A stretch of 64,000 nt of DNA from an uncultured Ignavibacteria bacterium (GTDB lineage Bacteria; Zixibacteria; MSB-5A5; RBG-16-43-9): contig CAZMZF010000001.1 of assembly GCA_964570765.1 (NCBI GenBank), forward strand, positions 47,626 to 111,625. Direction: 5' to 3'. The translations under genes were made by a program, and so were the position numbers. Shown here in pieces: positions 9,340 to 63,373 of the stretch. Positions within the stretch are counted from its first letter, which is position 1; the number at the start of each line of letters is the position of its first letter. Below the pieces are notes generated by a model. It did no database searches. It saw only the letters and a list, made by a program, of their open reading frames with translations, and was not told the origin of the DNA.

Positions 9340-9390
9340 GTAGCGCGAGGCTTTTAGCCTCGCAATGCGACCCTGAAAGGGTCGCGCTAC
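9340..9390. repeat. REP element: GTAGCGCGAGGC-TTTTA-GCCTCGC-AATG-CGACCC-TGAAA-GGGTCGCGCTAC
   Basis: Double-hairpin palindrome with GTAG/CTAC termini, located 22 bp upstream of the RAYT gene. Confidence 0.75.
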
Positions 9391-9412
9391 GATTATAAGA
9401 AATGTAAATTAA

Positions 9413-9892
9413 ATGAAATATAGTTTTCAAAAGAGGATAAGATTAAAGGACTTTTCTTATAAAGGTTTGTGGAGATACTTCGTAACAATTTCGACGTACG
9501 AAGGTAAACGATATTTCGAAAATAATAAGTCTGTAGAGAGTTGTATTATTTATCTTAAAGATATATCGGTTTCATATAACTTCAACGTATTAGCGTATTG
9601 TTTTATGCCTGATCATTTGCATCTTTTGATTGAAGGAAAAGAGGAAGATTCTGATTTTAGGAAGTTTATGTCTATGTTTAAACAGAAGTCAAATTATCAT
9701 TGTAAAAACATCGAAGGAAATCCTCTTTGGCAAAAGGATTATTATGAACATGTTTTAAGAAGAAATGAGGATACTATACAGGTAATAAAGTATATATTAG
9801 ATAATCCGGTAAGAAAAGGGATGGTTAAGGATTTTAGAGATTATCCCTTTCTCGGTTCTTTTGTTTATGATTTAAAAGAGGTATTTTCGTAG
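9413..9892 (+). CDS. REP-associated tyrosine transposase (RAYT, IS200-like HUH Y1)
   Basis: HuH motif MPDHLHLLI and downstream catalytic Tyr region LWQKDYYEHVLR...NPVRKGMV. Same-family REPs flank the gene on both sides. Confidence 0.85.
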   Translation: MKYSFQKRIRLKDFSYKGLWRYFVTISTYEGKRYFENNKSVESCIIYLKDISVSYNFNVLAYCFMPDHLHLLIEGKEEDSDFRKFMSMFKQKSNYHCKNIEGNPLWQKDYYEHVLRRNEDTIQVIKYILDNPVRKGMVKDFRDYPFLGSFVYDLKEVFS

Positions 9893-9938
9893 CGCGAGGC
9901 TTCAGCCTCGCAATGCGATCCTAAAAGGATCGTCCTAC
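9889..9938. repeat. REP element of the same family. Its GTAG supplies the RAYT TAG stop codon
   Basis: GTAGCGCGAGGCTTCAGCCTCGCAATGCGATCCTAAAAGGATCGTCCTAC. Confidence 0.75.
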
Positions 9939-19366: not shown

Positions 19367-19867
19367 AGATTTCCCTTGTCAAAAAAGTTCGGTATAATAT
19401 ATTGATTAAGAAGATATTTATCAACAGAAAAGATGAAAAGAAATATCAGATTTTATATTAAACGATAGAATTTAAAATACATAAAAGGGCGACCCGCCGG
19501 GTCGTCCCTACGATCTGTAAACGATGAAAGAACGTTGTAAGGAGAGAGGATAGGGGAGAGGTTTTATTTTGTCGATAAAGGAATTAAGACCAGTAGGGCG
19601 GAAACCTTCAGGTTTCCATATTATTTGAAAATGGAAAGTTGAAATCTCAAGACTTTGTCCGAAATTGGATCCATAGGAACGGTCTTCCGCTACAAAAAAC
19701 AAGAAGAGGGCAGGGGAGAGGTTTTAAAAAATTCTTGCCAAAAATAATTTATATGCTATACTTACAAGTGGAGAAGTAAGTTAGACACCAGAGAGTTTCC
19801 GTCAAGTCAGTCCGCCTGAGGTGGATGACGGGCATATTGAAAAATAAAAAATTGGAAGGAGGTTTTT

Positions 19868-37841: not shown

Positions 37842-38279
37842 AGATTACCCTCGCTTTCTTTTTATTTTCAAAAGGAAAAGTATTATACTAAATAGATATG
37901 GAAAAAGTCAAGATTTTTTGACAGAATATTTTTTTAAAGTTTTAGGGATCCAGTTTTGGAGAAAGCACAGGTGACTTTCTAGGTAGAGACGCATTGCCAT
38001 GCGTCTCTACTTCTTTCGTAAAACTCATCTTGACATGGAAGACGGTTTCTCTCCTACAGGAAAGGGGATAGTTGAAAGCTGTAGGGGTGAAGTTACCTCG
38101 TCCCTACAAAAAATATTTAATTTTAATGTTCTTTGTCCGAGTTTGTCATCAAGACCCAAAATCGGGGATCCATAGGATTGGTATCCTCACCAAGAAGAAA
38201 AAATCGTTGGTCGGGAGACCAACGATTAGCAAAGGGCGTATGGCAATACGCCCCTACGATCTATTCGATATCTGATATT

Positions 38280-50400: not shown

Positions 50401-50630
50401 GATTTATGTAGGGGCACGGCGCACCGTGCCCCTACGGATGTCATTGCGACCCCGCCACAGGAGGGGGAAGCAATCTGCTGACTATGTGAAGGTTGCTTCG
50501 TCGTCCCCGAAGGGGGCTCCCCGCAATGACAGGTAAAAGAAAAATATTTTGAAATTTTTCTTGCTTTTTGAAAAGTTATCTATATGTTAGTTAATGGTAG
50601 TATAAAAAACCTAAAACTAAGGAGTGGAAG

Positions 50631-52955: not shown

Positions 52956-54221
52956 ATGAGAGTAATGACTAAAATTTTGTTATCTTTTTTAATCCTTTTT
53001 TCCCTGGTCAGTTCTTCACAATCCAGAATAATCTATATTCCCTCCCCCTCTTTAGCCACAATTCAAGGTGGGATAAATGTTGCCTCCAACGGTGACACGG
53101 TTCTGGTCAATGTGGGAACCTATTATGAGAATATAGACTTCAAGGGAAAAAATATCGTGGTGGCAAGCAGGTATCTTATTGAAGGGGATAGCAGTTTAAT
53201 TGAGGCGACCTTCATAGACGCAACTTATTCTTCATCCAAACCTGTGGTAACTTTTAAATCCGGTGAGGACTCCCTTACCCTTTTAACCGGGTTCACCATT
53301 CGTAACAATTCTGATTCCTTAGGGATACTTTGCGACAGCAGTTCCAGCCCCCGGATCATCTATAACCAGATTAAGAATAACCTGGGAGGTCTTTCCTGTT
53401 CCAATTCTTCTAATCCTTTGATAAAAAATAATTTCTTTAAAGATAATGTCAACAATGGGGTGCGGAGTCAGAGCGGTTCTTCTCCTCAGGTGGAGAATAA
53501 TTTCATCTCTGGACACCAAGTGGGGATAAATTGTTCTGCTGGTGCTCCACTTATCAAAAGGAATGTAGTAACTCAGAGCAGTAAGATGGGAATTAACATA
53601 AGTAGTGCGTCTCCACAAGTTTACAATAACACTATAGCAAATATCACCGGGGATGGAGTAGAGATTGTTTCCTCCTCAGATGTGAAATTAATAAATAACA
53701 TCATAGCAAGTTGCAGTCTTGGCGTGGGCATAAAGGTTTCAAGCTCTAATCCTATTATAAAGTATAACGATGTCTGGGGCAATGCTGGTGGAAATTTCTC
53801 CGGAACACCTATAGGTGTTGGGAATATGTCCTGGGGTAAAAATTTAAAAGGGATAGCCTGTGACCAGTTTCTAAATATCAGCCAGGAGCCTAAATTTGTA
53901 AACCCACCTGCTGATTTTTCATTGCAGTGTTCTTCTCCCTGTATAGATGTTGGAGATCCGGGTTTCCCCGTTCCGAGTTCAGGTGGACCCAGGATCGATA
54001 TGGGGGCTTATGAGTACCTTATCTCCACTGGAGATGTTTATGTAGATGGTAAGATCAATGTTTCAGATGTAATCTTCCTGATAAATTATCTTTTCAAAAA
54101 TGGTCCCGCTCCAGATCCCTTATTAAAAGGAGATGTGACTGCAGATAGTTTAGTAAATGTCCAGGATATATTCCATCTGATAAATTATCTTTTCAGAAAC
54201 GGTATGCAGCCCTGTCATTGA
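52956..54221 (+). CDS. Secreted right-handed parallel beta-helix repeat protein with a C-terminal dockerin-like module
   Basis: Signal peptide MRVMTKILLSFLILFS. The start is chosen at MRVMTK rather than the track start at 52929. Repeated ...N.I..N..G....SS.P.I..N... units. C-terminal GDVYVDGKINVSDVIFLINYLFKNGP / GDVTADSLVNVQDIFHLINYLFRNG. Confidence 0.6.
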   Translation: MRVMTKILLSFLILFSLVSSSQSRIIYIPSPSLATIQGGINVASNGDTVLVNVGTYYENIDFKGKNIVVASRYLIEGDSSLIEATFIDATYSSSKPVVTFKSGEDSLTLLTGFTIRNNSDSLGILCDSSSSPRIIYNQIKNNLGGLSCSNSSNPLIKNNFFKDNVNNGVRSQSGSSPQVENNFISGHQVGINCSAGAPLIKRNVVTQSSKMGINISSASPQVYNNTIANITGDGVEIVSSSDVKLINNIIASCSLGVGIKVSSSNPIIKYNDVWGNAGGNFSGTPIGVGNMSWGKNLKGIACDQFLNISQEPKFVNPPADFSLQCSSPCIDVGDPGFPVPSSGGPRIDMGAYEYLISTGDVYVDGKINVSDVIFLINYLFKNGPAPDPLLKGDVTADSLVNVQDIFHLINYLFRNGMQPCH

Positions 54222-54283
54222 CCTATGTGGGAGTGGAGGCTGGAACTCCTTTTACGAAAACCGAGGGAACGGTTTCATTAAGG

Positions 54284-54315
54284 CGAATCCCGAATTTCAG
54301 GGACTCGCTTTTTTG
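54284..54315 (+). terminator. Hairpin GCGAATCCC-GAATTTCA-GGGACTCGC followed by T6
   Basis: Seen in the sequence about 60 nt after the stop of the beta-helix gene. Confidence 0.45.
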
Positions 54316-54545
54316 TTATCAAAAAGCGTTTGTTTTTTCCAGTTGAAAGATTTATAATAAAAAATGAGTATGGAATAAGGAAGATGGAAAATGAAAAATG
54401 GAATAGGTAAAAAGTAGTAAACCGTTAGTGGAGATTTATGTATAGGTATTGACAATTTAGTTTAGAGTGTGTCATGGAAAATAAAAACGTAACGTTATCT
54501 TTACAAAGTTACCAAAATATGATTTAATTATGAAGAGAGTAAGCA

Positions 54546-55025
54546 ATGCGAGTTGAAGATCAAATAAACAATGACAATGTGACCTTGCCCCGACAGAATT
54601 TATTCTCCATCTTAAAATGGGGATTTTTTTTGACCTTAATACTTTTTTTAATAAATTGCGGGCTGAAAAGACCAAAGGATGAGATTGGTCCCCTTAAGGA
54701 GGTGATAAGCAGGTTTGAGAGAGGGGTTATTAATGAAAACAGAATAGTCCTGGATTCGGTCTATAGCAAAAAAGATATAAACAGGGATTCGCTTATCAGC
54801 TCAGTTCTTCAAGAATTTTCTGCCTTGAAATCGAAAGGATTTTATTCCTTTAAGAGGAGGAAGTTTTCGATAATAGAGAATAAAATAATTGCTACAGTGG
54901 AGCTTTTCATAAGCAGAGAGGATCAGAAATCCGCGAGTGGATCCGTAGGAGAGGAGAAGATATTAGAGGTTTTCTTAGAAAAGAAAAGGGGTGAATGGAA
55001 AATAGTTGGACAGGATATAAAATAA
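54546..55025 (+). CDS. Hypothetical lipoprotein
   Basis: TM/signal region ending in LINCG (lipobox-like). Confidence 0.4.
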   Translation: MRVEDQINNDNVTLPRQNLFSILKWGFFLTLILFLINCGLKRPKDEIGPLKEVISRFERGVINENRIVLDSVYSKKDINRDSLISSVLQEFSALKSKGFYSFKRRKFSIIENKIIATVELFISREDQKSASGSVGEEKILEVFLEKKRGEWKIVGQDIK

Positions 55026-55225
55026 AGAACGTTTAATCCGCCAAAGGCGGACAAAAGTTCAAAGGCTCAAAGGAAGAAAAAATAATAATGGATGAAGAAT
55101 GACGAATGACGGAAAAAATATTGTAGGGGCAACCCCCTGCGGTTGCCCATTATGGGAGCAGGCGCTGGAGCCTGCCCCTACATAAAATATAAAATGTCAA
55201 CACTTATGAATTCAGAGGTCAATAG

Positions 55226-56284
55226 ATGTTAGGTTTGAATGAGATTATCGAAAAAGAAGTTACTAAGGCGATTTCTTTCATCCAGGAAGCTTTGAAGGAA
55301 AAACCTGAGTATATCGAAATTGAGCGGGGTGAGGAGGAGAAAGAGCTATTACTTTTAGATAAAAATTTAGACCAACTTTCCTTTGATAAAATCCCGGAGC
55401 TTAGCTGTGAAAACAAAGTCGCGGCAGTGGATGGTGGGTCTGCTACAGTCCTTAAAACCAGGTCTTTTCTGATCGGAGTTTATCGGGCAGGATATGTAAT
55501 TTTTCAGAAAGGGAAAAGAGTTAAGGAGAAGTTTGTTCCTCTGAGGATGGAGATTCTATCTCTGGAAAACAAAGCAGAGAAATATCTGCAAGCGTATCAA
55601 GAACTGGTAGGTGAGGTGCCGAATGAGGTCCCGGAGTTAGATAAGATTTTAGACCGGTTAAGGCTTTTTGCGGAATGGGGGCTGGTCAAGGGATTAATAA
55701 CTGATTTAGAAAAGAGTGATATGATTTTAGTAGATGGCTCATTAAGGGCAAGCATTGTGCCTCCGTATGAGCTTCTTTTAAAAGTAACAGAAGAAGCCAA
55801 ACAGAAAAATATCCATTTAGTTGGAGTGACCAAGACCTCTACTCTATACTGGGGTAAAAAATCTCCTTTGATTCCGATGGTGGTTAAAAGCTCAGAGAAG
55901 TTCTGTCCAGAATCTAAGTGGTTCTGCCGTTTGTCTGATCTGGATTTAGCTTTGAAAAATTCCAACTGGTTCGGGACGATCTATGTATCCAGGCTTAAAG
56001 CCTCTTCTGATTATGCTTTTAGAGTGGATATAAATCGTCTGGATAATACTGAGCCAGCAAAGATTTTCTCCTGGCTGTCCAATCTTTCCTCTGACCCAGC
56101 ATACTTAGGTTATCCCTATCCTTTAGCTGCAGTGCATAATCGGGCCAGGATTTTAGGAAGTGAGATCGAAGATATAAAATATAGATTGCAGAGCAAGGCT
56201 TTAGAAAAAGGGATTTCATTTGCGGACTGGAACCTTTTGTTCCGGGATTTTCATGAGGTGTTGAATGCGGATTTAAATAAATAA
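55226..56284 (+). CDS. NurA-like nuclease domain protein (tentative)
   Basis: KVAAVDGGSATV matches the NurA N-terminal catalytic Asp motif (..DGS). Size about 350 aa. A HerA-like ATPase gene lies 1 kb downstream. Confidence 0.5.
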   Translation: MLGLNEIIEKEVTKAISFIQEALKEKPEYIEIERGEEEKELLLLDKNLDQLSFDKIPELSCENKVAAVDGGSATVLKTRSFLIGVYRAGYVIFQKGKRVKEKFVPLRMEILSLENKAEKYLQAYQELVGEVPNEVPELDKILDRLRLFAEWGLVKGLITDLEKSDMILVDGSLRASIVPPYELLLKVTEEAKQKNIHLVGVTKTSTLYWGKKSPLIPMVVKSSEKFCPESKWFCRLSDLDLALKNSNWFGTIYVSRLKASSDYAFRVDINRLDNTEPAKIFSWLSNLSSDPAYLGYPYPLAAVHNRARILGSEIEDIKYRLQSKALEKGISFADWNLLFRDFHEVLNADLNK

Positions 56285-56382
56285 AATAAATGACTAATGA
56301 TTAATGATAGATAACGGATAAAAAAAATGGAAAATGAAAGAAAGAAGAAGAGAAATAAAAAGATAATGACGAATAAATAACT

Positions 56383-56443
56383 GTAGGAGCAGGCCCCTGT
56401 GCCGGCCCTGATATTCTGGGCGAACACACAGGTTAGCCCCTAC
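56383..56443. repeat. REP element GTAGGAGCAGGCCCCTG...GCCCCTAC (GTAGGGGC family)
   Basis: Palindrome with GTAG/CTAC termini 18 bp upstream of the RAYT2 start. Confidence 0.6.
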
Positions 56444-56460
56444 AAATACCAGAATAAAAA

Positions 56461-57048
56461 ATGCAACAGAATTCGGAAAAATATCAACGTCGTTCAATCC
56501 GATTAAAGGAATACGATTATTCACAAGCTGGGGCGTATTTTGTAATGATATGCACGCAGAACAATGAATGCGTTTTTGGAGAGGTGATTAATGAAGAGAT
56601 GAGATTGAATAAATATGGGAAAATTGTTAAAGATGAGTGGTTGAGGACAAGGGAGATACGTTCAAATGTGATGTTGGATGAATATATCGTGATGCCAAAT
56701 CATTTTCATGGTATTATACTGATTATTGATGATGTGTTTGTAGGGGCGACCCGCCGGGTCGCCCCTACAGTAAAATCAACCACGTTGAAGTCAAATACCC
56801 TCGGTTCAATTATTGGTCAAATAAAATCCATTGTTACCAAAAATATTCACAAAATGGGATTAAAACATTTTCACTGGCAAAGAAATTATTATGAACATGT
56901 TATTAGGAATGAAGATAAGTTGAACAAAATCAGACAATATATTCAGAACAAACCTCTAAGCTGGCATCTGGATAGAGAAAATCCGGAAAGGGTAGGAATA
57001 AATAGGTTAGAAGATGAGATTTTTAATTTGAAGAAGACAATTAAATAA
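56461..57048 (+). CDS. REP-associated tyrosine transposase (RAYT / IS200-like Y1), second copy with a REP palindrome embedded in the coding sequence
   Basis: HuH motif MPNHFHGIIL. Catalytic Tyr region WQRNYYEHVIRNE...YIQNKP. The palindrome GTAGGGGCGACCCGCCGGGTCGCCCCTAC at 56740-56768 lies in-frame between the two motifs. Confidence 0.75.
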   Translation: MQQNSEKYQRRSIRLKEYDYSQAGAYFVMICTQNNECVFGEVINEEMRLNKYGKIVKDEWLRTREIRSNVMLDEYIVMPNHFHGIILIIDDVFVGATRRVAPTVKSTTLKSNTLGSIIGQIKSIVTKNIHKMGLKHFHWQRNYYEHVIRNEDKLNKIRQYIQNKPLSWHLDRENPERVGINRLEDEIFNLKKTIK

Positions 57049-57328
57049 ATAGCGGATGACGAATATCGAACGACGAATAATGGATAAAAGAAGAAGGGAT
57101 ATAGAAGAAGGAATATGAAAATGAAGAAAAATGGTAGATATTGAAGATTGATTAAAAGATTGTAAGGTCAATCTCCCGTGCCTGTCCCGGAAAGGTGCTA
57201 TCATTGCGAGGAGTCTCCCCGCCTTTGGCGGGGGACGACGAAGCAAGCACCTTACTCAATCAGTGTAAACAGATTGCTTCGCACCGCAGGGGACTCGCAA
57301 TGACACTATTATAACCTGAGGAGAAAAA

Positions 57329-58894
57329 ATGGATTACAAAGGCAGAATAATCGGAAAAAGTATAACCGAGATTTATTTCCGGACTTTTTATGAGGAGGAA
57401 CTTCATTTAGGGGATATCCTGGTGGCACAGGACGAGGAGAAAAATCTTCCTTTTTATTTAAGAGTAGTGGAGGTCAGTTACGGAGTTGAAGCAACTGATC
57501 CGGACTGGGCTTCTCGCACTGCGGGGAATATGATGCTTTTAGACCGGCAGACCGAGTCTTATCAGTTTCAGGAAAAAGAGAGAAGGCTTTTCAAAATTGG
57601 AAAATGTGTCCCCTTAGGTTATATTAAAGATAATCTCTTCAGAAAACCAAAAACTATACCGGAACATTTCTCCAGAGTGCGCACTCCAAATAATGAAGAT
57701 TTTCTTTTTCTGAAAAAATATACGGGTGATATAGACGTTGGTAAACTGCGCTCAGGTGAAGATGTGATTGATTTCAAAATCGGAGTCTCCGGAGAGCTGT
57801 TTCCTTATCATATCGGGATATTCGCTACCACCGGTATGGGGAAAAGTAATTTGATGAAGGTTTTAGCCAGTTCAGTTTTAGAATCGGGCAAATACGGGAT
57901 GCTGATTTTGGACCCGCACGGAGAATATTATGATGGGGGAGGTGATCCGAAACATAAGGGGTTGGTTGATCATCCTTTAGCAAAAGAATGGCTGAGAGTC
58001 TATTCTTCCAGAGATTTAAAAGGTCCTTATAATAAACTCAAGATAAGCTCCAAGGAGATAGAGATCAAGGATGTTCGGCAGATTTACGGGTTCACCCAGG
58101 CACAGGTGGAAGCGCTTTATGCCTTAGCGCATCATTTTGGCAGGGATTGGCTGGATGGAGTAAAGAGAAGTTCTATTTCAGAGCTGGCGATGAGTTTGTC
58201 ATCTGGCGGTGCTTTTTTTGAATCAACGATAGGAGTCATCCAGAGGAGAGCAGAGCAGATTTTGAGACTTCCCTTTGTGCATGGTGACCCTAATGTCTCT
58301 ATTACTGTTAATGTGATTAATGATTTATCCTCAGGTAAAGTGGTTTTGATAGATACTTCCAATATGTCTGAACAGGAGGAGCTTTTGATCTCTGCGGTTC
58401 TGGCACGGGCTGTTTTCTCCAGAAATAAAGAGGCATATCAGGATCCTGCCAAGTTCAAAAAGATCTTACCTACTCTGATCGTGATGGAAGAAGCCCAGAG
58501 AGTTTTATCTCAAAAGGGCGAAGCGGATATAAATATCTTTGCTCAAGTCTCAAGAGAAGGAAGGAAGTTCAAAACCGGGCTTTGTGCCATTACCCAACAG
58601 CCAAAACTAATCGATGAGGAGCTTTTGTCTCAGTTCAATACCCTTTTCATCTTAGGTCTGGCAGATGAACGGGACCGGAATATCCTGAAAAGCTCTGCCA
58701 AGCAGGATATTTCTGATCTGGGAACAGAGATTCAGATGCTTGAAGCAGGCGAAGCTTTGATCACCTCTCCCCAGGCTCCTTTTGCCATCCCGGTTAAGGT
58801 CTATCTTTTTGAAGAATGGCTGAAGGAAAGAAAAGAAAGCTTGAAAGAAAAAAATTCTGTGGATGTAAAGGTGGATGAGGGATTTTTTAAATAG
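57329..58894 (+). CDS. HerA-like ATPase (FtsK/HerA superfamily, DUF87)
   Basis: Walker A GIFATTGMGKSNL, Walker B LIVMEEAQR. About 520 aa. Confidence 0.7.
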   Translation: MDYKGRIIGKSITEIYFRTFYEEELHLGDILVAQDEEKNLPFYLRVVEVSYGVEATDPDWASRTAGNMMLLDRQTESYQFQEKERRLFKIGKCVPLGYIKDNLFRKPKTIPEHFSRVRTPNNEDFLFLKKYTGDIDVGKLRSGEDVIDFKIGVSGELFPYHIGIFATTGMGKSNLMKVLASSVLESGKYGMLILDPHGEYYDGGGDPKHKGLVDHPLAKEWLRVYSSRDLKGPYNKLKISSKEIEIKDVRQIYGFTQAQVEALYALAHHFGRDWLDGVKRSSISELAMSLSSGGAFFESTIGVIQRRAEQILRLPFVHGDPNVSITVNVINDLSSGKVVLIDTSNMSEQEELLISAVLARAVFSRNKEAYQDPAKFKKILPTLIVMEEAQRVLSQKGEADINIFAQVSREGRKFKTGLCAITQQPKLIDEELLSQFNTLFILGLADERDRNILKSSAKQDISDLGTEIQMLEAGEALITSPQAPFAIPVKVYLFEEWLKERKESLKEKNSVDVKVDEGFFK

Positions 58895-58946
58895 AGTATT
58901 TTGTATGGACAGAACACTGTTCTGTCCTACTTTTTTATCTAACTAC

Positions 58947-59888
58947 ATGAATATCCAGAAAGAAAAAATCAAATTTTATCTTGATAAAAATATTTGGTCG
59001 CATAAAATAATGGAGATGACTCCATCTGAGCTTGAAGAGTTTAAAATTTTATTGAAACCTTTAAAAGAACAATCAAAAATAGAGATATATTATTCTCCGA
59101 TTAATGTATTGGAGTTGATAAAGGGAATGTAATTAGAAAAATATTATGAGGTTTGTCAAAAAGAAATAAGGTTAGTCGACAGAATAACAGACAAACATAT
59201 ACTTGAATATCCGTGGCACCATATACAGCGAATAGCATTTTGGTTCCTTGGAAAGCCATTTCAGGAAATTGACCTTACCTTTTTGAATTTATGTAGAAAA
59301 ATTGCAAATTCATCATATCGAGATATTGAACGTGATATTCAACCAATTCATAACATCTTAAATAGATGGATTAATGAATGGGTAGACAATCTTAACTCTA
59401 TTATAATAAGATTTAGAGAGGAACTTGGTTTAGAGATCATAGGCGAATGTAAGTTATTAAAGATTAAAGAATATTGGACCAAAGAATCAACTCCTAAGAG
59501 AAGACAAAGAATGTGGATATCTTTCTGTAACCACTTTTCTCTTTCACCTCAACTAAAGGATTACCCTTTTATCTCAGCATATGATAACTTTCATTCATTT
59601 AGATATTGGGTAGATTATCGACTTACTTTTGAAAACAAACTAATCTTTAAGAACAAAAGAGTTGAATCTGGTGATTATTTGGATTGGGAACAAACTGTCT
59701 ATCTTAACATAATGGATTATTTAGTAACTGAAGATGGAGATTTAAGAAGTATTTTCGAAGAATGCGATAATGATGAAATTCATAGTAGGACAATTACTTT
59801 TAATAAATTTATTGACTACCTCAAAGGTGAATTACCTCCTAAACGAGCACCTGATACTACAGCTGAGCAATGGTATGATACCAGTTAA
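58947..59888 (+). pseudogene. AT-rich hypothetical reading frame interrupted by a single in-frame TAA (59130-59132). Possible pseudogene or two small genes
   Basis: The ORFs 58875-59132 and 59283-59888 are in the same frame and the stretch 59133-59282 is also open. The first ~70 nt of the upstream ORF cover a REP (GGACAGAACACTGTTCTGTCC). Confidence 0.3.
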
Positions 59889-60312
59889 AATTGGTGTAGG
59901 AATTCCCCAGAATGGGTCTTGGCGACATTTCCCGCACGAACAGTAAATCTCTTTTTCCGTCAGGTCAGGGTACCTGACGGGCACTTGGAATTCCTTTAAT
60001 AGGTCGTATATTATAATAAATCAATGGTAGGGGTTAAAAATTTTGAACCCTTTCAAGGTTTATCAACTCGCTCTAGACCTCACCCTGCCCTTGTATTTTA
60101 AATTGGAAGGATTTATAATTATACGGACCGGGATGAAACTGTCCTTACCCAAAGGTATTAAAGCCTGAAGGAGAGATTAGTTCGCCCGGTCCGTTAATCC
60201 GCCAGAGGCGGACCTGATACCGGACGGTATCTTAGGCGATCAGATTTGACCAGCCTGTATTCACAAGGTCGGTACAAGGCGTCCAGGGGTAAAGGTAAAA
60301 CAGGAGGTTACA

Positions 60313-61042
60313 ATGAGCAAGGGAATTTTTTACATTGGAGTTGATGTGGGGCAAGAGGAGTTATGGGTAGCAATAGAAGGACACAAGCCACATTCTTTTA
60401 CCCATACTGTGGCTGGCGCTAAGGAGTTGTGGAATTGGATTCGGAAGAGAGTAATCCTGAGGCAACTTTGCATTTCTGTATGGAAGCTACCGGAGTCTAT
60501 AGTCAGAGATTAGCAGCCATTCTTTCCAACTATGAGGATACAGAGATTAGCATTATCAATCCAGCCCAAATCGCCTCCTTTTCTAAAGCCCAACTCAAGC
60601 GTAGTAAAACTGATCGAATAGACTGTCAGGTCATTGTATCAAAACCCAGATCCAGCTTCTCTGCAGTGTTCAGTGCATAGGAGAAGGCACTGCTACTCAC
60701 TTGCTAGCCTATGGCAAAACAGCGCTGACCAATTATTCAGTCAGAGCTTTAGTGGCTCATGTCGGGATAGCGCCCAGACACCGACAATCCGGAATCTCAG
60801 TTTGGGGCAAAAGCCACCTGGCTAAAGAAGGAGATAAACGCTTACGCTGTATCCTTTATATGCCTACTCTTGTCGGAATTGTACCTAACCCTATCCACAA
60901 GAAATTCTACCAAAGACTATTGGCTAAGGGTAAACCCAAAAAGGTAGCTTTAATCGCTTGTATGAAAAAGTTACTGCTTATCGTTAGAGCTATCCTGATC
61001 AAACAAGTTCCATTTAACCCGGCTATCCAAGGCGTAATATGA
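60313..61042 (+). pseudogene. IS110-family transposase remnant (frameshifted and internally deleted)
   Basis: N-terminal DEDD-type segment IFYIGVDVGQEELWVA. C-terminal segment VAHVGIAPRHRQSG...ALIACMKKLL is typical of the IS110/IS116/IS902 C-domain. The remnant is split over three frames and only about 240 of an expected ~350 aa remain. Confidence 0.7.
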
Positions 61043-61182
61043 AAAAATCATCTTGACATGGAAGACGGTATCTCTCCTGAAAGGAGAGGGGAGGGTGGGG
61101 TCTATCTATGGAGACCTTGCCTACGAGTTGTGGAGACGCATGCCATGCGTCTCTACGAAAAAATCTACATAAATTTGTAGTT

Positions 61183-61204
61183 GCCCAATTTATTGGGCTT
61201 TTTT
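61183..61204 (+). terminator. Hairpin GCCCAAT-TTA-TTGGGC followed by T6
   Basis: Perfect short stem plus T-tract read directly from the sequence. Confidence 0.45.
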
Positions 61205-61372
61205 GCTTGATAAATCAAGCAACTATAGATAAAGGGGACTGTAGCGTCGGGTTTTACGCCCGATGTATTTTTTTCAATTATGGAGTACATCCATTTGGAT
61301 GCTTTCTATAATCCAAATTTCTGACTTGACACTGTTTTTTCCGTATATAAGTTAGGATTTAAAAGGAATGAT

Positions 61373-63373
61373 ATGGCTAAGTTTGGACTGGTTTCAAATT
61401 ACAAACCCACTGGTGATCAGCCTCAGGCGATTGAGAAATTAACTGAAGGTGTCCGGAGATGTGAAAAATATCAGACCCTTTTGGGTGTAACCGGCTCAGG
61501 GAAGACTTTTACGGTTGCTAATCTCATCGCCAATGTGGGTAAGCCAAGTATAGTGATTTCCCATAATAAAACCTTAGCGGCTCAGCTTTACGGTGAGCTA
61601 AAGGGTTTTTTCCCGCATAACGCGGTGGAGTTTTTCATAAGTTATTATGACTATTATCAGCCAGAGGCTTATGTCCCGCAGACTGATACTTATATAGAGA
61701 AAGATACCTCGATGAATGATGATATCGATAGACTGCGCCTGCGGGCTACCTCATCTTTATTAGAAAGAGAAGATGTGGTTATCGTTGCCAGTGTCTCCTG
61801 CATATATGGGTTAGGTTCTCCTAAGGATTACAAGGAGCTACTCTTGTTCTTAGAGGTAGGAGAAGAGTTCGAAAGGGACCAGATTTTAAAATCTCTGATC
61901 GATATCCATTATTCCAGAAACGATATCGAATTTGCCCGGGGAACTTTCCGGGTAAGAGGGGATACGATTGAGGTTCATCCAGCTTATGAGGAGACCGCAA
62001 TCAGATTAGAGCTGTTCGGCGATAAACTCGAGAGGATTTCGGTTATCGATACCTTAAAAGGTGATCTCTTGGAGGAGAAGAAAAGGGTTGCGATTTATCC
62101 GGCTAAACATTTTGTTACCACACCACCTCAATTAGAACAGGCGATCAAAAATATCGAAATAGAATTAGAGGAGAGGTTGAACTGGTTCAGGGACCAGGGA
62201 AAGCTCCTGGAGGCACAGAGACTGGAATCACGCACGAAATTTGATTTAGAGATGATGAGGGAGATCGGTTATTGTCCTGGAATTGAAAACTATTCACGTC
62301 ATCTTTCCGGCAGGAAACCAGGAGAAAAGCCTTATTGTCTTTTAGATTTTTTTCCAAAGGATTTTTTGATAATCATAGATGAATCTCATCAAACAATCCC
62401 TCAGATAAGAGGGATGTATGCCGGGGACAGGTCCAGGAAAGAGGTCTTAGTTGAATATGGGTTCAGGCTCCCTTCAGCCTTAGATAATCGTCCACTGTTT
62501 TTCAAGGAGTTCGAATCTATGATTAATCAGGTTGTCTTCGTCTCAGCCACTCCTGCAGAATTTGAGTTAGAAAGAAGCAAAGGGGTAGTAGTTGAACAGA
62601 TCATCCGGCCTACTGGACTGATAGACCCTCTAATTATAGTTAAACCTTTAAAAAATCAGGTGGATGATCTTTTAGAGGAGATAAAATTAAGGTCAGAGAA
62701 AAAGGAAAGGGTTTTAGTTACTACCTTAACCAAAAGGATGGCTGAAGATTTAGCAGATTATCTTGCACAGATGGGCATAAAAGTTAGGTACCTTCATTCG
62801 GAAATAGATGCGATTGAGAGGGTGGATATCTTAAGGGATTTAAGGTTAGCAGAGTTCGATGTCCTGGTGGGGATTAATCTATTAAGAGAAGGTCTTGACC
62901 TGCCAGAGGTTTCCCTGGTAGCCATCTTAGATGCAGATAAAGAGGGTTTTCTCCGTTCGGAAACTTCACTCATTCAGATTGCAGGCAGGGCTGCCAGGAA
63001 TAAAGCGGGTGAGGTGATTATGTATGCGGGTGAAGTAACAGACTCTATGAGAAAGGCGATTGAGGAGACGAATCGGAGGAGAAAGATTCAAGAAGAGTAT
63101 AATAAATCTCACGGGATTACACCTCAAACCATTTATAAAACCAGAGAGGAGATTTTGAAAACCACAACCTTTGCAGATTCCAGGACCGAATCTGTGGTCA
63201 AAGAAGAGAGGATGGATTATCTGGACCTTTTAACCTTAGAAGATAAGATCGAACATTTAGAAAGGGCAATGAAAAAGGCATCTCAAAACTTAGAGTTCGA
63301 AAAAGCAGCTATTTATCGAGATGAGTTGAAGAAATTAAAGGAAGGCCAGAAAAAAAGGTTCAGAAGAAATTGA
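61373..63373 (+). CDS. uvrB: Excinuclease ABC subunit B
   Basis: 666 aa. Walker A GVTGSGKT, helicase motifs, beta-hairpin region and C-terminal UVR domain ([12 protein letters not shown]). Confidence 0.95.

What the first reader, a model, noticed from the sequence alone, without database searches (positions are those of the whole stretch)
55226..58894. NurA-like nuclease and HerA-like ATPase pair, split by insertion of a RAYT/REP unit
The gene at 55226-56284 has the NurA-type N-terminal ..AAVDGGS.. catalytic motif. The gene at 57329-58894 has HerA/FtsK-type Walker A (GMGKSN) and Walker B (VMEEAQ) motifs. HerA-NurA pairs are an archaeal-type end-resection machine. In bacteria they are sporadic, and related HerA-like ATPases have been co-opted into anti-phage systems. 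Here the two genes are separated by about 1 kb that holds RAYT2 and REP arrays. The presumed operon has therefore been disrupted by, or tolerates, a mobile element. An AT-rich reading frame interrupted by a stop follows HerA (58947-59888).
Basis: partly seen in the sequence, partly recalled or inferred. Interest (0 to 1): 0.55.

Follow-up and report, generated by a model that had tools for sequence, protein, structure and literature searches.

The report
NurA–HerA repair pair hosting a RAYT
This Zixibacteria genome carries an archaeal-type NurA nuclease and HerA motor pair for trimming broken DNA ends, and a small domesticated transposase gene with its palindromic repeats sits between the two genes without visibly damaging either, so the pair is real but ordinary.

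Summary
55226-56284 is a NurA nuclease by Pfam score, predicted fold and catalytic Asp residues. 57329-58894 is a HerA ATPase by its DUF87 domain, Walker A and B motifs and fold, which is closest to the Sulfolobus and Thermococcus repair HerAs, not to VirB4/TraC. 56461-57048 is a RAYT-type HUH/Tyr transposase next to GTAG-tagged REP hairpins.

The organism is a Zixibacteria MAG. Across 84 related loci, nurA is almost always followed directly by herA, usually within 200 bp. In more distant Zixibacteria, Actinomycetota and Thermoplasmata, mre11-rad50 follow, giving the canonical archaeal end-resection operon.

Relatives with about 90% identical NurA have a 137-bp spacer that already holds the REP doublet. 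The window carries an extra 872 bp (56444-57315) between that REP and the unchanged herA ribosome-binding site. Sibling lineages carry other RAYTs, or a RAYT plus a SIR2-like gene, at the same spot, so the spacer is a recurrent landing site.

All three genes are under purifying selection (dN/dS 0.03-0.21). The unit is therefore tolerated, not disruptive. This is a new member of a known kind.

Side observations are more unusual. Every RAYT of this type carries a perfect, covarying REP hairpin inside its own reading frame. In siblings, a SIR2 gene lies immediately upstream of this herA.

The parts
55123..55181 (.). GTAG-tagged REP doublet (REPIN-like hairpin) upstream of nurA
   Evidence: GTAGGGGC at 55123 (+) and 55174 (-). 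Folds as ssDNA at -19.3 kcal/mol, z = -3.85.
55226..56284 (+). nurA: NurA-family 5'-3' nuclease, 352 aa
   Evidence: Pfam NurA 55.9 bits against a cut-off of 21. The family profile hits Sulfolobus NurA 2ygk, aligning D69 and D170 with the catalytic D58 and D133. The AlphaFold model (pLDDT 83.7) best matches 2ygk at E 1.7e-12. dN/dS 0.07-0.12.
56383..56443 (.). REP doublet in the nurA-herA spacer, also present in relatives that lack the RAYT
   Evidence: Aligns with the spacer REP of L001-L003; L007 and L008 carry the same REP type in their spacers. GTAGGAGC at 56383 (+) and GTAGGGGC at 56436 (-).
56444..57315 (+). Extra segment relative to RAYT-free relatives (872 bp, boundary uncertain by about 2 nt): RAYT gene, A-rich spacer and composite palindromic element
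   Evidence: Alignment with L001-L003. Shared sequence stops after ...CCCCTAC (56443) and resumes at CTGAGGAGAAAAAATG (57316).
56461..57048 (+). RAYT-type Y1 HUH transposase gene ('RAYT2'), 195 aa
   Evidence: HUH motif HFH at residues 81-83 and NYYEH at 142-146. NCBIfam REP_Tyr_transpos scores 47.3 bits, below the cut-off of 80. At least 7,977 homologues, many annotated RayT and/or carrying PF01797. dN/dS 0.11-0.21.
56739..56769 (.). Perfect 15-bp-stem GTAG-tagged palindrome inside the RAYT reading frame (encodes FVGATRRVAPT)
   Evidence: ssDNA fold -18 kcal/mol, z = -6.05. The same position in every RAYT2-type gene examined holds a perfect palindrome with a covarying inner stem.
57162..57307 (.). 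Composite palindromic repeats downstream of the RAYT (GTAAGGTC...CACCTTAC, and a roughly 100-nt TCATTGCGAG...CTCGCAATGA element)
   Evidence: Folds at -30.5 kcal/mol, z = -7.0. Exact inverted TCATTGCGAG at 57201 and 57294; a sister copy lies at about 50438-50532.
57316..57328 (+). herA ribosome-binding region CTGAGGAGAAAAA, unchanged from RAYT-free relatives
   Evidence: Identical in L001-L003.
57329..58894 (+). herA: HerA/FtsK-superfamily hexameric DNA translocase ATPase, 521 aa
   Evidence: DUF87 91 bits against a cut-off of 23.2. Best PDB sequence hit is Sulfolobus HerA 4d2i at 8.7e-26. The model (pLDDT 87.1) best matches 4d2i at 2.6e-29 and the Thermococcus HerA-NurA complex 9x1m. dN/dS 0.03-0.04.
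58907..58937 (+). Intrinsic-terminator-like hairpin plus T-run 13 nt after the herA stop
   Evidence: 9-bp stem GGACAGAAC/GTTCTGTCC followed by TACTTTTTTA.
58947..59888 (+). AT-rich gene of unknown function, pseudogenised by one nonsense codon (TAA 59130-59132)
   Evidence: Uninterrupted in L007, L009 and L071, directly downstream of herA; the ORF listing on L009 gives 320 aa. Rare family: 54 clusters in 1.84 billion representatives. No convincing Pfam match and no PADLOC match for the intact homologue.

Best explanation
**What the genes are.** The two genes are the Zixibacteria orthologues of the archaeal-type NurA-HerA DNA end-resection machine.

**How the pair most likely works (inferred from the solved Sulfolobus, Thermococcus and Deinococcus complexes, not shown here).** A HerA hexamer, using Walker A K172 and the Walker B residues E387/E388, translocates on duplex DNA from a broken end. 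It feeds the strands into a NurA dimer docked on its N-terminal barrel face. The NurA RNase-H-like active sites (D69, D170, probably E150, K203, Y296) degrade the 5' strand. This leaves a 3' tail for recombinase loading.

**Link to Mre11-Rad50.** In sister lineages the pair is transcribed with mre11-rad50. In this sub-clade that linkage is lost, and the pair ends at its own terminator.

**The inserted unit.** The nurA-herA spacer carries GTAG-tagged REP hairpins. It has been colonised, probably more than once, by REP-associated tyrosine transposase units (REPtrons). Here an 872-bp segment sits exactly between the foot of the resident REP and the herA ribosome-binding site. The segment holds the RAYT gene and further palindromic repeats.

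**Consequence for expression.** All three genes point the same way. No terminator-like site lies in either spacer flanking the RAYT (56285-56460, 57049-57328), and herA keeps its native RBS. The RAYT is therefore most likely carried as a passenger inside a nurA-RAYT-herA transcript, and the repair pair remains functional.

**Shown:** the gene identities, the insertion boundaries, the recurrence in relatives and the purifying selection.

**Inferred:** complex formation, resection activity and co-transcription.
For: **NurA.** Pfam 55.9 bits. Collinear catalytic motifs against Sulfolobus NurA. Invariant D69, E150, D170, K203 and Y296 in 21 homologues. Fold match to 2ygk, TdpB and Deinococcus NurA.

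**HerA.** DUF87 91 bits. Best sequence and fold matches are the Sulfolobus and Thermococcus repair HerAs.

**Orthology with repair operons.** In 84 loci nurA is followed by herA, mostly within 200 bp. About half show mre11 and rad50 directly downstream, including Zixibacteria with 60-63% identical NurA and 75-78% identical HerA.

**Insertion.** L001-L003 (NurA 90%) have a 137-bp spacer with the same REP and the same RBS.

**Recurrence.** A RAYT lies in the same spacer in L087, L089, L090, L091, L005/6/10 and L016. RAYT identity to the window ranges from 53% to 93%.

**Selection.** dN/dS is 0.07-0.12 for NurA, 0.03-0.04 for HerA and 0.11-0.21 for the RAYT.

**Transcription signals.** The terminator-like hairpin with the longest stem follows herA at 58907. 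No terminator-like site falls in either spacer flanking the RAYT; the weaker sites the scan lists lie inside nurA or herA.
Against: - No Mre11 or Rad50 homologue lies in the 64-kb window, so the partner complex is unverified for this genome.
- The NCBIfam equivalog models for characterised NurA and HerA score far below their cut-offs (30.8 against 400; 103.6 against 800). These are distant family members, and their biochemistry may differ.
- In Deinococcus and Thermus the physiological role of bacterial NurA-HerA is itself disputed (PMC9960219).
- Co-transcription and complex formation were not tested.
- The sigma-70 and terminator scans are crude and are not calibrated for this phylum.
- The polarity of the event is not resolved. 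It could be a gain in the window lineage or a precise loss in L001, L007 and L009.
Confidence: 0.8

Rival explanations
1. In this sub-clade the pair has left DNA repair and acts as an anti-phage or anti-plasmid module. The model would be TdpAB (a HerA-like TdpA plus a NurA-like TdpB) or Sir2-HerA. HerA would sense or thread foreign DNA, and NurA would act as the effector, together with a SIR2 NADase in the siblings.
For: - The mre11-rad50 linkage is lost in this sub-clade.
- The siblings L005/6/10, L016 and L091 carry a SIR2_2 gene immediately upstream of this same herA. Its only PDB sequence match is the SIR2 of a SIR2-HerA antiphage complex.
- TdpB and TdpA are the second-best structural families for NurA and HerA.
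- HerA hits PADLOC HerA models at up to 96.5 bits.
- Mobile elements and a rare AT-rich accessory gene flank the pair.
Against: - NurA has no PADLOC hit.
- The best matches for both proteins are the archaeal repair enzymes.
- The proteins are clear orthologues of pairs embedded in nurA-herA-mre11-rad50 operons.
- The pair is conserved in syntenic position across the phylum with very low dN/dS, which is unlike a patchy, fast-evolving defence island.
- The window itself has no SIR2 gene.
Confidence: 0.12
2. The RAYT unit is not a recent insertion in the window lineage. It is an old resident of this spacer, present since the common ancestor with L005, that was precisely lost in L001-3, L007 and L009 and replaced by other RAYTs elsewhere.
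For: - RAYT identity tracks NurA identity for L091 (92-93% against 91%), L087 (about 87% against 88%) and L005 (73-74% against 76%).
- The RAYT-free spacers keep a REP exactly at the junction, as expected after REP-guided excision.
Against: - L016, L089 and L090 carry RAYTs only 53-60% identical to the window's at the same spot, although their NurA is 83-90% identical.
- RAYT dS between the window and L091 (0.19) is less than half the NurA dS (0.44). This suggests more recent exchange of the RAYT.
- No rooted tree was built.
Confidence: 0.4
3. The insertion has uncoupled the genes, and one or both are decaying. On this view the pair is a disrupted operon on its way to loss.
For: - The 1,044-bp gap is unusual. 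Only 6 of 84 loci exceed 600 bp.
- The neighbouring AT-rich gene and an IS110 transposase are pseudogenes.
- The L016 nurA has a frameshift.
Against: - Both ORFs are full length with all invariant residues.
- dN/dS is 0.03-0.12, including against RAYT-bearing relatives.
- The herA RBS is intact.
- Lineages with RAYT or RAYT+SIR2 inserts have kept both genes over long divergence (dS above 1).
Confidence: 0.03
4. The ATPase is a conjugative VirB4/TraC/TrwB-type motor, and the 'NurA' is an unrelated RNase-H-fold protein.
For: Weak sub-threshold hits to AAA_10, TrwB_AAD_bind, TraC and VirB4 models.
Against: - Those hits score 15-29 bits, against cut-offs of 20.5-27.5 for the Pfam models and 325-1177 for the NCBIfam models.
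- The HerA models and structures win by many orders of magnitude.
- No other conjugation genes are nearby.
Confidence: 0.01

Closest known systems
Archaeal HerA-NurA end-resection complex (Saccharolobus solfataricus 4d2i/2ygk; Thermococcus kodakarensis 9x1l-9x1p) and the nurA-herA-mre11-rad50 operon of thermophilic archaea
   Same: - Best sequence and fold matches for both proteins.
- The same catalytic Asp motifs and Walker motifs.
- The same gene order, nurA-herA(-mre11-rad50), in orthologous loci of Zixibacteria, Actinomycetota and Thermoplasmata.
- HerA is 43-57% identical to that of Thermoplasmata and related archaeal MAGs.
   Different: - The host is bacterial and mesophilic-looking.
- Only 16-20% identity to the solved proteins, far below the NCBIfam equivalog cut-offs.
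- In the window's sub-clade mre11-rad50 are not adjacent.
- A RAYT gene lies between the two genes.
Bacterial NurA-HerA of Deinococcus radiodurans and Thermus thermophilus (7f6d, 7wrw; PMC9960219)
   Same: A bacterial NurA-HerA pair. NurA is the third-best fold hit (7f6d_G).
   Different: - Deinococcus HerA ranks only 37th by fold and is absent from the sequence hits. The Zixibacteria pair is of the archaeal type, not the Deinococcus type.
- The literature describes bacterial NurA-HerA as present in only a few bacteria. Here it is phylum-wide and often keeps mre11-rad50.
REPtron: a RAYT (TnpA_REP, E. coli 4er8) flanked by GTAG-tagged REPs/REPINs
   Same: - HUH and Tyr motifs.
- A GTAG-headed REP doublet immediately upstream.
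- In the closest relative, L091, REPs lie on both sides.
- The family is annotated RayT.
   Different: - Very distant from E. coli TnpA_REP (E 0.74), and below the Pfam and NCBIfam thresholds.
- Carries a perfect REP hairpin inside its own ORF.
- In siblings it carries a SIR2_2 cargo gene.
- It occurs at the same intergenic site in many lineages with divergent RAYTs, which is not the strictly vertical single-copy picture usually drawn.
HerA-based defence systems (Sir2-HerA/Nezha, DUF4297-HerA, TdpAB)
   Same: - The HerA fold, with a partner docking on the hexamer.
- Siblings have a SIR2_2 gene directly upstream of the orthologous herA.
   Different: - The window has no SIR2 or DUF4297 gene.
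- NurA is not in PADLOC.
- Defence HerAs are weaker matches than repair HerAs.

Membership tests
NurA nuclease (Pfam PF09376) | Profile match above the curated gathering score | tested here: met
   55.9 bits against a cut-off of 21, covering profile positions 2-254 of 254.
NurA nuclease (Pfam PF09376) | RNase-H-like NurA fold | tested here: met
   The model (pLDDT 83.7, pTM 0.84) hits Sulfolobus NurA 2ygk at E 1.7e-12, TdpB at 3.9e-11 and Deinococcus NurA at 7e-8.
NurA nuclease (Pfam PF09376) | Catalytic D-E-D triad plus the conserved Lys and Tyr (Sulfolobus D58, E116, D133, K202, Y298; PMC3326311) | tested here: met
   D69 aligns with D58 and D170 with D133. GYPYPL aligns with GYPFPL, placing Y296 opposite Y298. 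D69, E150, D170, K203 and Y296 are invariant in 21 homologues. The Glu equivalence is offset by 3 residues in the HMM alignment, so that one residue is inferred, not shown.
NurA nuclease (Pfam PF09376) | NCBIfam equivalog of characterised Sulfolobus NurA (NF041033) | tested here: not met
   30.8 bits against a cut-off of 400. It is a family member but not an equivalog.
HerA helicase/translocase (DUF87, PF01935) | Profile match above the gathering score, with Walker A and Walker B motifs | tested here: met
   91 bits against 23.2. GMGKSN at 169-174 and VMEEAQ at 385-390, invariant in 22 homologues.
HerA helicase/translocase (DUF87, PF01935) | HerA fold (N-terminal beta-barrel, RecA-like core, helical insert) | tested here: met
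   The model (pLDDT 87.1) matches Sulfolobus HerA 4d2i at E 2.6e-29 with TMt 0.74, and Thermococcus HerA at 7.7e-29. The N-terminal strands at residues 5-53 and 87-105 are consistent with a barrel.
HerA helicase/translocase (DUF87, PF01935) | NCBIfam equivalogs of repair HerA (NF040937, NF040819) or antiphage HerA (NF042943, NF042944) | tested here: not met
   103.6 against 800 and 95.1 against 970 for the repair models; 47 against 800 and 44.8 against 850 for the antiphage models.
HerA helicase/translocase (DUF87, PF01935) | Hexameric ring that binds a NurA dimer | not testable with these tools
   No complex prediction or biochemistry was available.
Archaeal-type nurA-herA-mre11-rad50 operon | Adjacency of nurA and herA on one strand | tested here: met
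   Same strand, separated by 1,044 bp that holds the RAYT. Relatives are directly adjacent.
Archaeal-type nurA-herA-mre11-rad50 operon | mre11 and rad50 in the same cluster | tested here: not met
   No tblastn hit to Mre11 or Rad50 anywhere in the window. They are present downstream of herA in about half of the 84 related loci, including Zixibacteria L004, L012, L013, L015, L021, L023, L025, L026, L028 and L031.
RAYT / REPtron | HUH motif and catalytic Tyr of Y1 transposases | tested here: met
   MPNHFHGI, with H81 and H83, and WQRNYYEH, with Y143/Y144. Conserved in 18 diverse homologues.
RAYT / REPtron | Curated profile thresholds (Pfam Y1_Tnp PF01797; NCBIfam REP_Tyr_transpos NF047646) | tested here: not met
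   No Pfam hit at E <= 0.01. NF047646 scores 47.3 against a cut-off of 80. Many homologues do carry PF01797 and the RayT name.
RAYT / REPtron | Flanked by GTAG-tagged REPs | tested here: met
   A REP doublet lies 17 nt upstream (56383-56443). Downstream there are palindromic repeats of another class in the window. GTAG REPs lie on both sides in L091, and downstream of the unit in L005 and L016.
RAYT / REPtron | Single copy per genome, vertically inherited | not testable with these tools
   Only 64 kb of the genome is visible. A second, distant RAYT (27% identity) lies at 9413-9892, and L090 has two 89% identical copies within 2.2 kb.
Sir2-HerA defence system | SIR2 NADase gene adjacent to herA | tested here: not met
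   No SIR2 homologue in the window. One is present in the siblings L005/6/10, L016 and L091.
VirB4/TraC conjugative ATPases | Profile match at family threshold | tested here: not met
   TraC scores 25.7 against 567, VirB4_plasma 29.4 against 590 and CD1110 16.5 against 325.

The most novel reading that the evidence does not exclude
The REP-marked nurA-herA spacer may be a site where RAYT units move in and out carrying cargo.

**Cargo and defence.** In sibling lineages the cargo is a SIR2 NADase gene placed directly upstream of a repair-type herA. These loci could be caught in the act of building a Sir2-HerA defence system on a housekeeping HerA, with one HerA hexamer serving both NurA and SIR2.

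**The internal hairpin.** Independently, every RAYT of this widespread family carries a perfect, covarying copy of a REP hairpin inside its own reading frame, read in different frames in different lineages. That hairpin could be the master copy from which extragenic REPs are seeded. Alternatively it could be a self-recognition site through which the transposase regulates its own gene.
Probability: 0.15. Interest if true: 0.7.

Novelty: new member of a known kind. Interest (0 to 1): 0.38.

Why it matters
**The pair.** As a NurA-HerA pair it adds little. It does extend the archaeal-type end-resection module, often as a complete nurA-herA-mre11-rad50 operon, to Zixibacteria and to some Actinomycetota MAGs. 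The literature read here still describes bacterial NurA-HerA as confined to a few lineages such as Deinococcus-Thermus.

**The RAYT.** The locus is a clean natural example of a repair operon tolerating a domesticated transposase between its genes. A RAYT has been gained, lost or replaced repeatedly at one REP-marked site. This bears on whether RAYTs are really immobile single-copy genes.

**The side observations.** The REP hairpin embedded in the RAYT reading frame, and the SIR2 cargo placed next to a repair-type HerA, would matter more if they hold up. The first offers a handle on how REP families and their transposases stay matched. The second suggests a route by which HerA is recruited into defence systems.

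Tried and rejected
- **PADLOC on NurA, the RAYT and the neighbouring genes.** Only HerA hit, against generic HerA models. This gives no basis for calling a defence system in the window.
- **Rfam scan of 54000-61500 at E <= 1.** It returned only a chance miRNA-model hit, so the structured 57195-57315 element is not a known RNA family.
- **Single-sequence phmmer of NurA against the PDB.** It found nothing meaningful. A family profile was needed.
- **Single-sequence phmmer of the RAYT against the PDB.** It gave only E 0.74 to E. coli TnpA_REP.
- **Pfam and PADLOC on the intact homologue of the AT-rich gene.** Nothing usable came back. The exhaustive HMMER search shows only that the family is rare.
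- **Sigma-70 promoter scan.** It found no + strand candidate in the 281 bp upstream of herA, but the scan is not calibrated for this phylum.
- **Assembly chimera.** I considered that the RAYT could be one and rejected the idea for the left junction, because an independent assembly is identical. Many independent metagenomes also show a RAYT at the same site.

Full report
**1. What is in the sequence**

The region holds three co-oriented ORFs:
- 55226-56284 (352 aa)
- 56461-57048 (195 aa)
- 57329-58894 (521 aa)

NurA has AAVDGGS at residues 66-72. HerA has GMGKSN at 169-174 and VMEEAQ at 385-390. Local GC is about 0.35-0.44, falling to about 0.30 downstream of herA.

**2. Identity of the two main genes**

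*NurA (55226-56284).*
- It matches Pfam NurA (PF09376) over the whole profile at 55.9 bits, against a cut-off of 21.
- A profile of 21 homologues hits the Saccharolobus solfataricus NurA structure 2ygk in three collinear stretches. These pair AAVDGGS with VAIDGGS (D69 with D58), LVDGSL with LMDGSL (D170 with D133) and GYPYPL with GYPFPL (Y296 with Y298).
- D58, E116 and D133 are the published catalytic residues, and K202 and Y298 are conserved neighbours (PMC3326311).
- D69, E150, D170, K203 and Y296 are invariant in the family alignment. The Glu is offset by three residues in the HMM alignment, so its equivalence is inferred.
- An AlphaFold2 model (pLDDT 83.7) best matches 2ygk (E 1.7e-12), then TdpB of TdpAB, then Deinococcus NurA, then Endonuclease V and Argonaute PIWI domains. 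That order is the expected neighbourhood for NurA.

*HerA (57329-58894).*
- It matches DUF87/HerA at 91 bits, against a cut-off of 23.2.
- Its best PDB sequence hit is S. solfataricus HerA 4d2i at 8.7e-26.
- Its model (pLDDT 87.1) best matches 4d2i (2.6e-29) and the Thermococcus kodakarensis HerA-NurA complex. These rank ahead of TdpA, Sir2-HerA and DUF4297-HerA. Deinococcus HerA ranks only 37th.
- TraC, VirB4 and TrwB models score 15-29 bits, against cut-offs of 20.5 for the Pfam TrwB model and 325-1177 for the NCBIfam models.

Neither protein reaches any NCBIfam equivalog cut-off, so these are distant members of the families rather than equivalogs of the studied enzymes.

**3. Host and conservation**

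- The closest homologues are all from candidate division Zixibacteria. NurA is 52-91% identical across many MAGs, and HerA is 71-95% identical.
- HerA is still 52-58% identical to proteins from Thermoplasmata archaeal MAGs.
- A scan of one genome per species recovered 80 NurA loci from Zixibacteria (some labelled 'Ignavibacteria'), Actinomycetota, Thermoplasmata and Methanobacteriota.
- I located NurA, HerA, Mre11 and Rad50 in every locus by tblastn. In 84 loci with both genes, herA follows nurA on the same strand, mostly within 200 bp.
- In about half of the loci, mre11 (Metallophos) and rad50 (SMC_N, AAA_23, SbcC Walker B) follow directly. These include Zixibacteria whose NurA is 60-63% and HerA 75-78% identical to the window's.

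The window's pair is therefore orthologous to pairs that sit in the canonical archaeal-type nurA-herA-mre11-rad50 end-resection operon. In the window's own sub-clade (NurA at least 76% identical), mre11-rad50 are not downstream, and no homologue is found anywhere in the 64-kb window.

**4. The segment between the genes**

*The gene.*
- The 195-aa ORF has the HUH motif (MPNHFHGI) and the Tyr motif (WQRNYYEH) of Y1 transposases.
- It scores 47.3 bits on NCBIfam REP_Tyr_transpos, below the cut-off of 80, and has no Pfam hit.
- It has at least 7,977 homologues. Many are annotated 'REP element-mobilizing transposase RayT' or carry PF01797.

*The repeats.*
- Seventeen nucleotides upstream lies a doublet of GTAG-tagged REPs (56383-56443). 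A similar doublet precedes nurA (55123-55181). Both fold as hairpins.
- GTAG-headed REPs are the class associated with RAYTs (PMC3733652).
- Downstream of the RAYT is a strongly structured palindromic element of another class (57162-57307; -30.5 kcal/mol, z = -7). It has one sister copy at about 50438-50532.

**5. Comparison with genomes lacking the RAYT**

- Three contigs whose NurA is 90% identical (L001-L003) have nurA and herA 137 bp apart.
- The alignment and the raw spacers show that this short spacer already contains the REP doublet. It then runs straight into CTGAGGAGAAAAAATG, the herA RBS and start.
- In the window the shared sequence stops after ...CCCCTAC (56443) and resumes at CTGAGGAG (57316).
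- The extra segment is therefore 56444-57315 (872 bp, with about 2 nt of ambiguity). It sits exactly at the foot of a resident REP and leaves the herA translation signals untouched.
- L007, L009 and L071 also lack a RAYT, with spacers of 134-176 bp.
- An independent assembly (L092) is identical over nurA, the REP and the 5' part of the RAYT.

**6. The spacer is a recurrent landing site**

A RAYT lies in the same spacer in several other loci:

| Locus | RAYT identity to window | Other content |
|---|---|---|
| L091 | 93% | intact 373-aa SIR2_2 gene |
| L087 | about 87% (frameshifted) | none |
| L005/6/10 | 74% | SIR2-like gene split into two ORFs |
| L089 | 59% | none |
| L090 | 55% | a second, 89% identical RAYT copy 2 kb upstream |
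| L016 (complete chromosome OY970208.1) | 53% | SIR2_2 gene |

- In L091 the unit is bracketed by GTAG REPs on both sides, which is the classical REPtron layout.
- For L091, L087 and L005, RAYT identity tracks NurA identity. That pattern is compatible with long residence and later precise loss in the RAYT-free lineages.
- For L016, L089 and L090 it does not track. The RAYT dS between the window and L091 (0.19) is also well below the NurA dS (0.44). Both points suggest replacement or exchange.
- I therefore leave the polarity of the event open.
- One other lineage, L023, has an unrelated 256-aa membrane/coiled-coil ORF in the spacer while keeping mre11-rad50. So the junction tolerates inserts in general.

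**7. Are the genes still working?**

- Nei-Gojobori dN/dS against several relatives is 0.07-0.12 for NurA, 0.03-0.04 for HerA and 0.11-0.21 for the RAYT. That includes comparisons among RAYT-bearing lineages with dS above 1.
- The consensus scan finds no terminator-like site in either spacer flanking the RAYT. The weaker sites it lists lie inside nurA (for example 56227-56245) or herA.
- The hairpin with the longest stem, a 9-bp stem followed by a T-run, lies 13 nt after the herA stop (58907-58937).
- The most economical reading is a nurA-RAYT-herA transcript with the RAYT as a passenger. This is inference, because the scans are crude and no expression data exist.

**8. Mechanism**

By homology to the solved complexes (PMC3326311, PMC9960219, PMC12977600), the pair most likely works as follows:
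1. A HerA hexamer translocates on duplex DNA from an end.
2. It feeds the strands into a NurA dimer bound to its N-terminal face.
3. NurA degrades the 5' strand and leaves a 3' tail for recombination.

None of this was tested here. The physiological role of bacterial NurA-HerA is disputed even in Deinococcus and Thermus.

The main rival is a defence role, which I put at about 0.12.
- In favour: the loss of mre11-rad50 linkage, the SIR2 cargo in siblings, and the structural proximity of TdpAB.
- Against: clear orthology to repair operons, phylum-wide syntenic conservation, very low dN/dS, and no PADLOC hit for NurA.

**9. Downstream of herA**

- The AT-rich frame 58947-59888 is a single uninterrupted gene directly after herA in L007, L009 and L071; the ORF listing on L009 gives 320 aa.
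- The window has one nonsense codon, TAA at 59130-59132, where the relatives encode Lys. It is a recent pseudogene or a sequencing error.
- The family is rare, with 54 clusters among 1.84 billion representatives. The intact homologue has no convincing Pfam match and no PADLOC match.
- Next come frameshifted IS110-family transposase fragments at 60313-61042 (Transposase_20), and then an intact 666-aa ORF at 61373-63373 that I read as UvrB-like from its translation but did not test.

**10. Things seen in passing that are more unusual than the finding itself**

(a) *A REP hairpin inside the RAYT reading frame.*
- Every RAYT2-type gene examined carries a perfect GTAG...CTAC palindrome at the same position, just after the HUH strand. 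This covers ten gene copies (nine loci plus the window) and five distinct sequences. The window copy is at 56739-56769.
- The outer 8 bp are constant, while the inner stem differs between lineages and stays complementary. On an alignment with extragenic REPs, 6 of 14 pairs show double changes, 95.7% of cells are paired, and 0 of 500 shuffles reach the covariation score.
- The palindrome is read in different frames in different lineages (VGATRRVAPT against GRGTLQRAPT). The DNA or RNA structure, not the peptide, is therefore what is conserved.
- The peptide signatures of such palindromes occur in 75 of 116 top homologues that have an HUH motif, across several phyla.
- Extragenic REPs with the same stems exist. 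Window 19485-19512 matches the window RAYT's own hairpin. L016 10993 matches the L016 RAYT's hairpin. Window 50408-50435 and about 38233-38260 resemble the hairpins of RAYTs seen only in other lineages.
- In the papers I could search I found REPs inside genes described, but not this feature of RAYT genes. I cannot exclude that it is known.

(b) *SIR2 next to a repair-type herA.* In the siblings, the SIR2_2 gene is immediately upstream of this herA. Its only PDB sequence match is the SIR2 of a SIR2-HerA antiphage complex (E 0.008), and it hits PADLOC SIR2 models. Automated defence finders would probably call those loci Sir2-HerA.

**11. Verdict**

The observation and the interpretation both stand. 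The pair is a new bacterial-phylum member of the archaeal-type NurA-HerA family. The RAYT/REP unit is a tolerated and recurrent occupant of its spacer. Interest in the finding as stated is modest. The embedded REP hairpin and the SIR2 cargo deserve their own follow-up.

Noticed in passing
window 56739-56769; also L005 7379-7411, L008 3449-3478, L016 9506-9533, L087 6509-6539, L089 6461-6488, L090 4185-4212 and 6370-6397, L091 3943-3973: Every RAYT of this type holds a perfect GTAG-tagged REP palindrome inside its ORF, just after the HUH motif. The inner stem covaries between lineages: 6 pairs show double changes, and 0 of 500 shuffles reach the score. The palindrome is read in different frames (VGATRRVAPT against GRGTLQRAPT). 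Peptide signatures of such palindromes occur in 75 of 116 top homologues from several phyla.
   Followed up: partly
L091 4258-5379; L016 9826-10980; L005 7692-8848 (split into two ORFs): In sibling Zixibacteria the nurA-herA spacer holds a RAYT plus a SIR2_2 gene directly upstream of the orthologous herA. The SIR2_2 gene matches PADLOC SIR2 models, and its only PDB sequence hit is the SIR2 of a SIR2-HerA antiphage complex. Together this looks like a Sir2-HerA arrangement built on a repair-type HerA.
   Followed up: partly
window 19485-19512, 38233-38260, 50408-50435: These extragenic REPs have stems that match palindromes embedded in RAYT genes. The first matches the window RAYT's own internal hairpin. 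The other two resemble the internal hairpins of RAYT lineages seen only in other genomes (the L090 type and the L089/'GRGTAHRAPT' type).
   Followed up: partly
window 9413-9892, with flanks 9342-9392 and 9890-9938: A second, distant RAYT (27% identical to the one in the spacer) is flanked on both sides by a different GTAG-tagged REP (GTAGCGCGAGGC...GCCTCGCAATGCGA...GCGCTAC). It has no internal palindrome.
   Followed up: partly
window 57199-57307 and 50438-50532: There are two copies of a roughly 100-nt multi-hairpin palindromic element (GTCATTGCGA...GAAGCAA..TTGCTTCG...TCGCAATGAC), each next to a GTAG REP. It has no Rfam match.
   Followed up: partly
window 58947-59888 (stop codon at 59130-59132): This AT-rich gene of a rare unknown family (54 clusters) is conserved directly downstream of herA in L007, L009 and L071 as one uninterrupted ORF (320 aa in L009). 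The window copy has a single nonsense codon where the relatives have Lys.
   Followed up: partly
window 60313-61042: Degraded IS110-family transposase. Three overlapping, frameshifted ORF fragments are present, and the last carries Transposase_20. It lies between the AT-rich pseudogene and a 666-aa UvrB-like ORF.
   Followed up: no
window 54546-55025: A 159-aa protein with no family match, whose N-terminal part looks hydrophobic by eye, is conserved immediately upstream of nurA in most Zixibacteria loci (28-65% identity). It may belong to the same transcription unit.
   Followed up: no
L023 9301-10071: In another Zixibacteria lineage, the nurA-herA spacer holds an unrelated 256-aa ORF that looks like a membrane/coiled-coil protein, while mre11-rad50 remain downstream.
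   Followed up: no
L009 12274-15704; L005 11053-11472: Downstream of the herA region, some relatives carry a conserved 139-aa gene and a 373-aa protein with a weak Phage_capsid_4 match (E 0.0024). This could be a prophage or encapsulin-like remnant.
   Followed up: no
L016 8813-8815: nurA in the complete chromosome OY970208.1 has an apparent 1-nt frameshift. It could be a long-read indel error or a real pseudogene.
   Followed up: no
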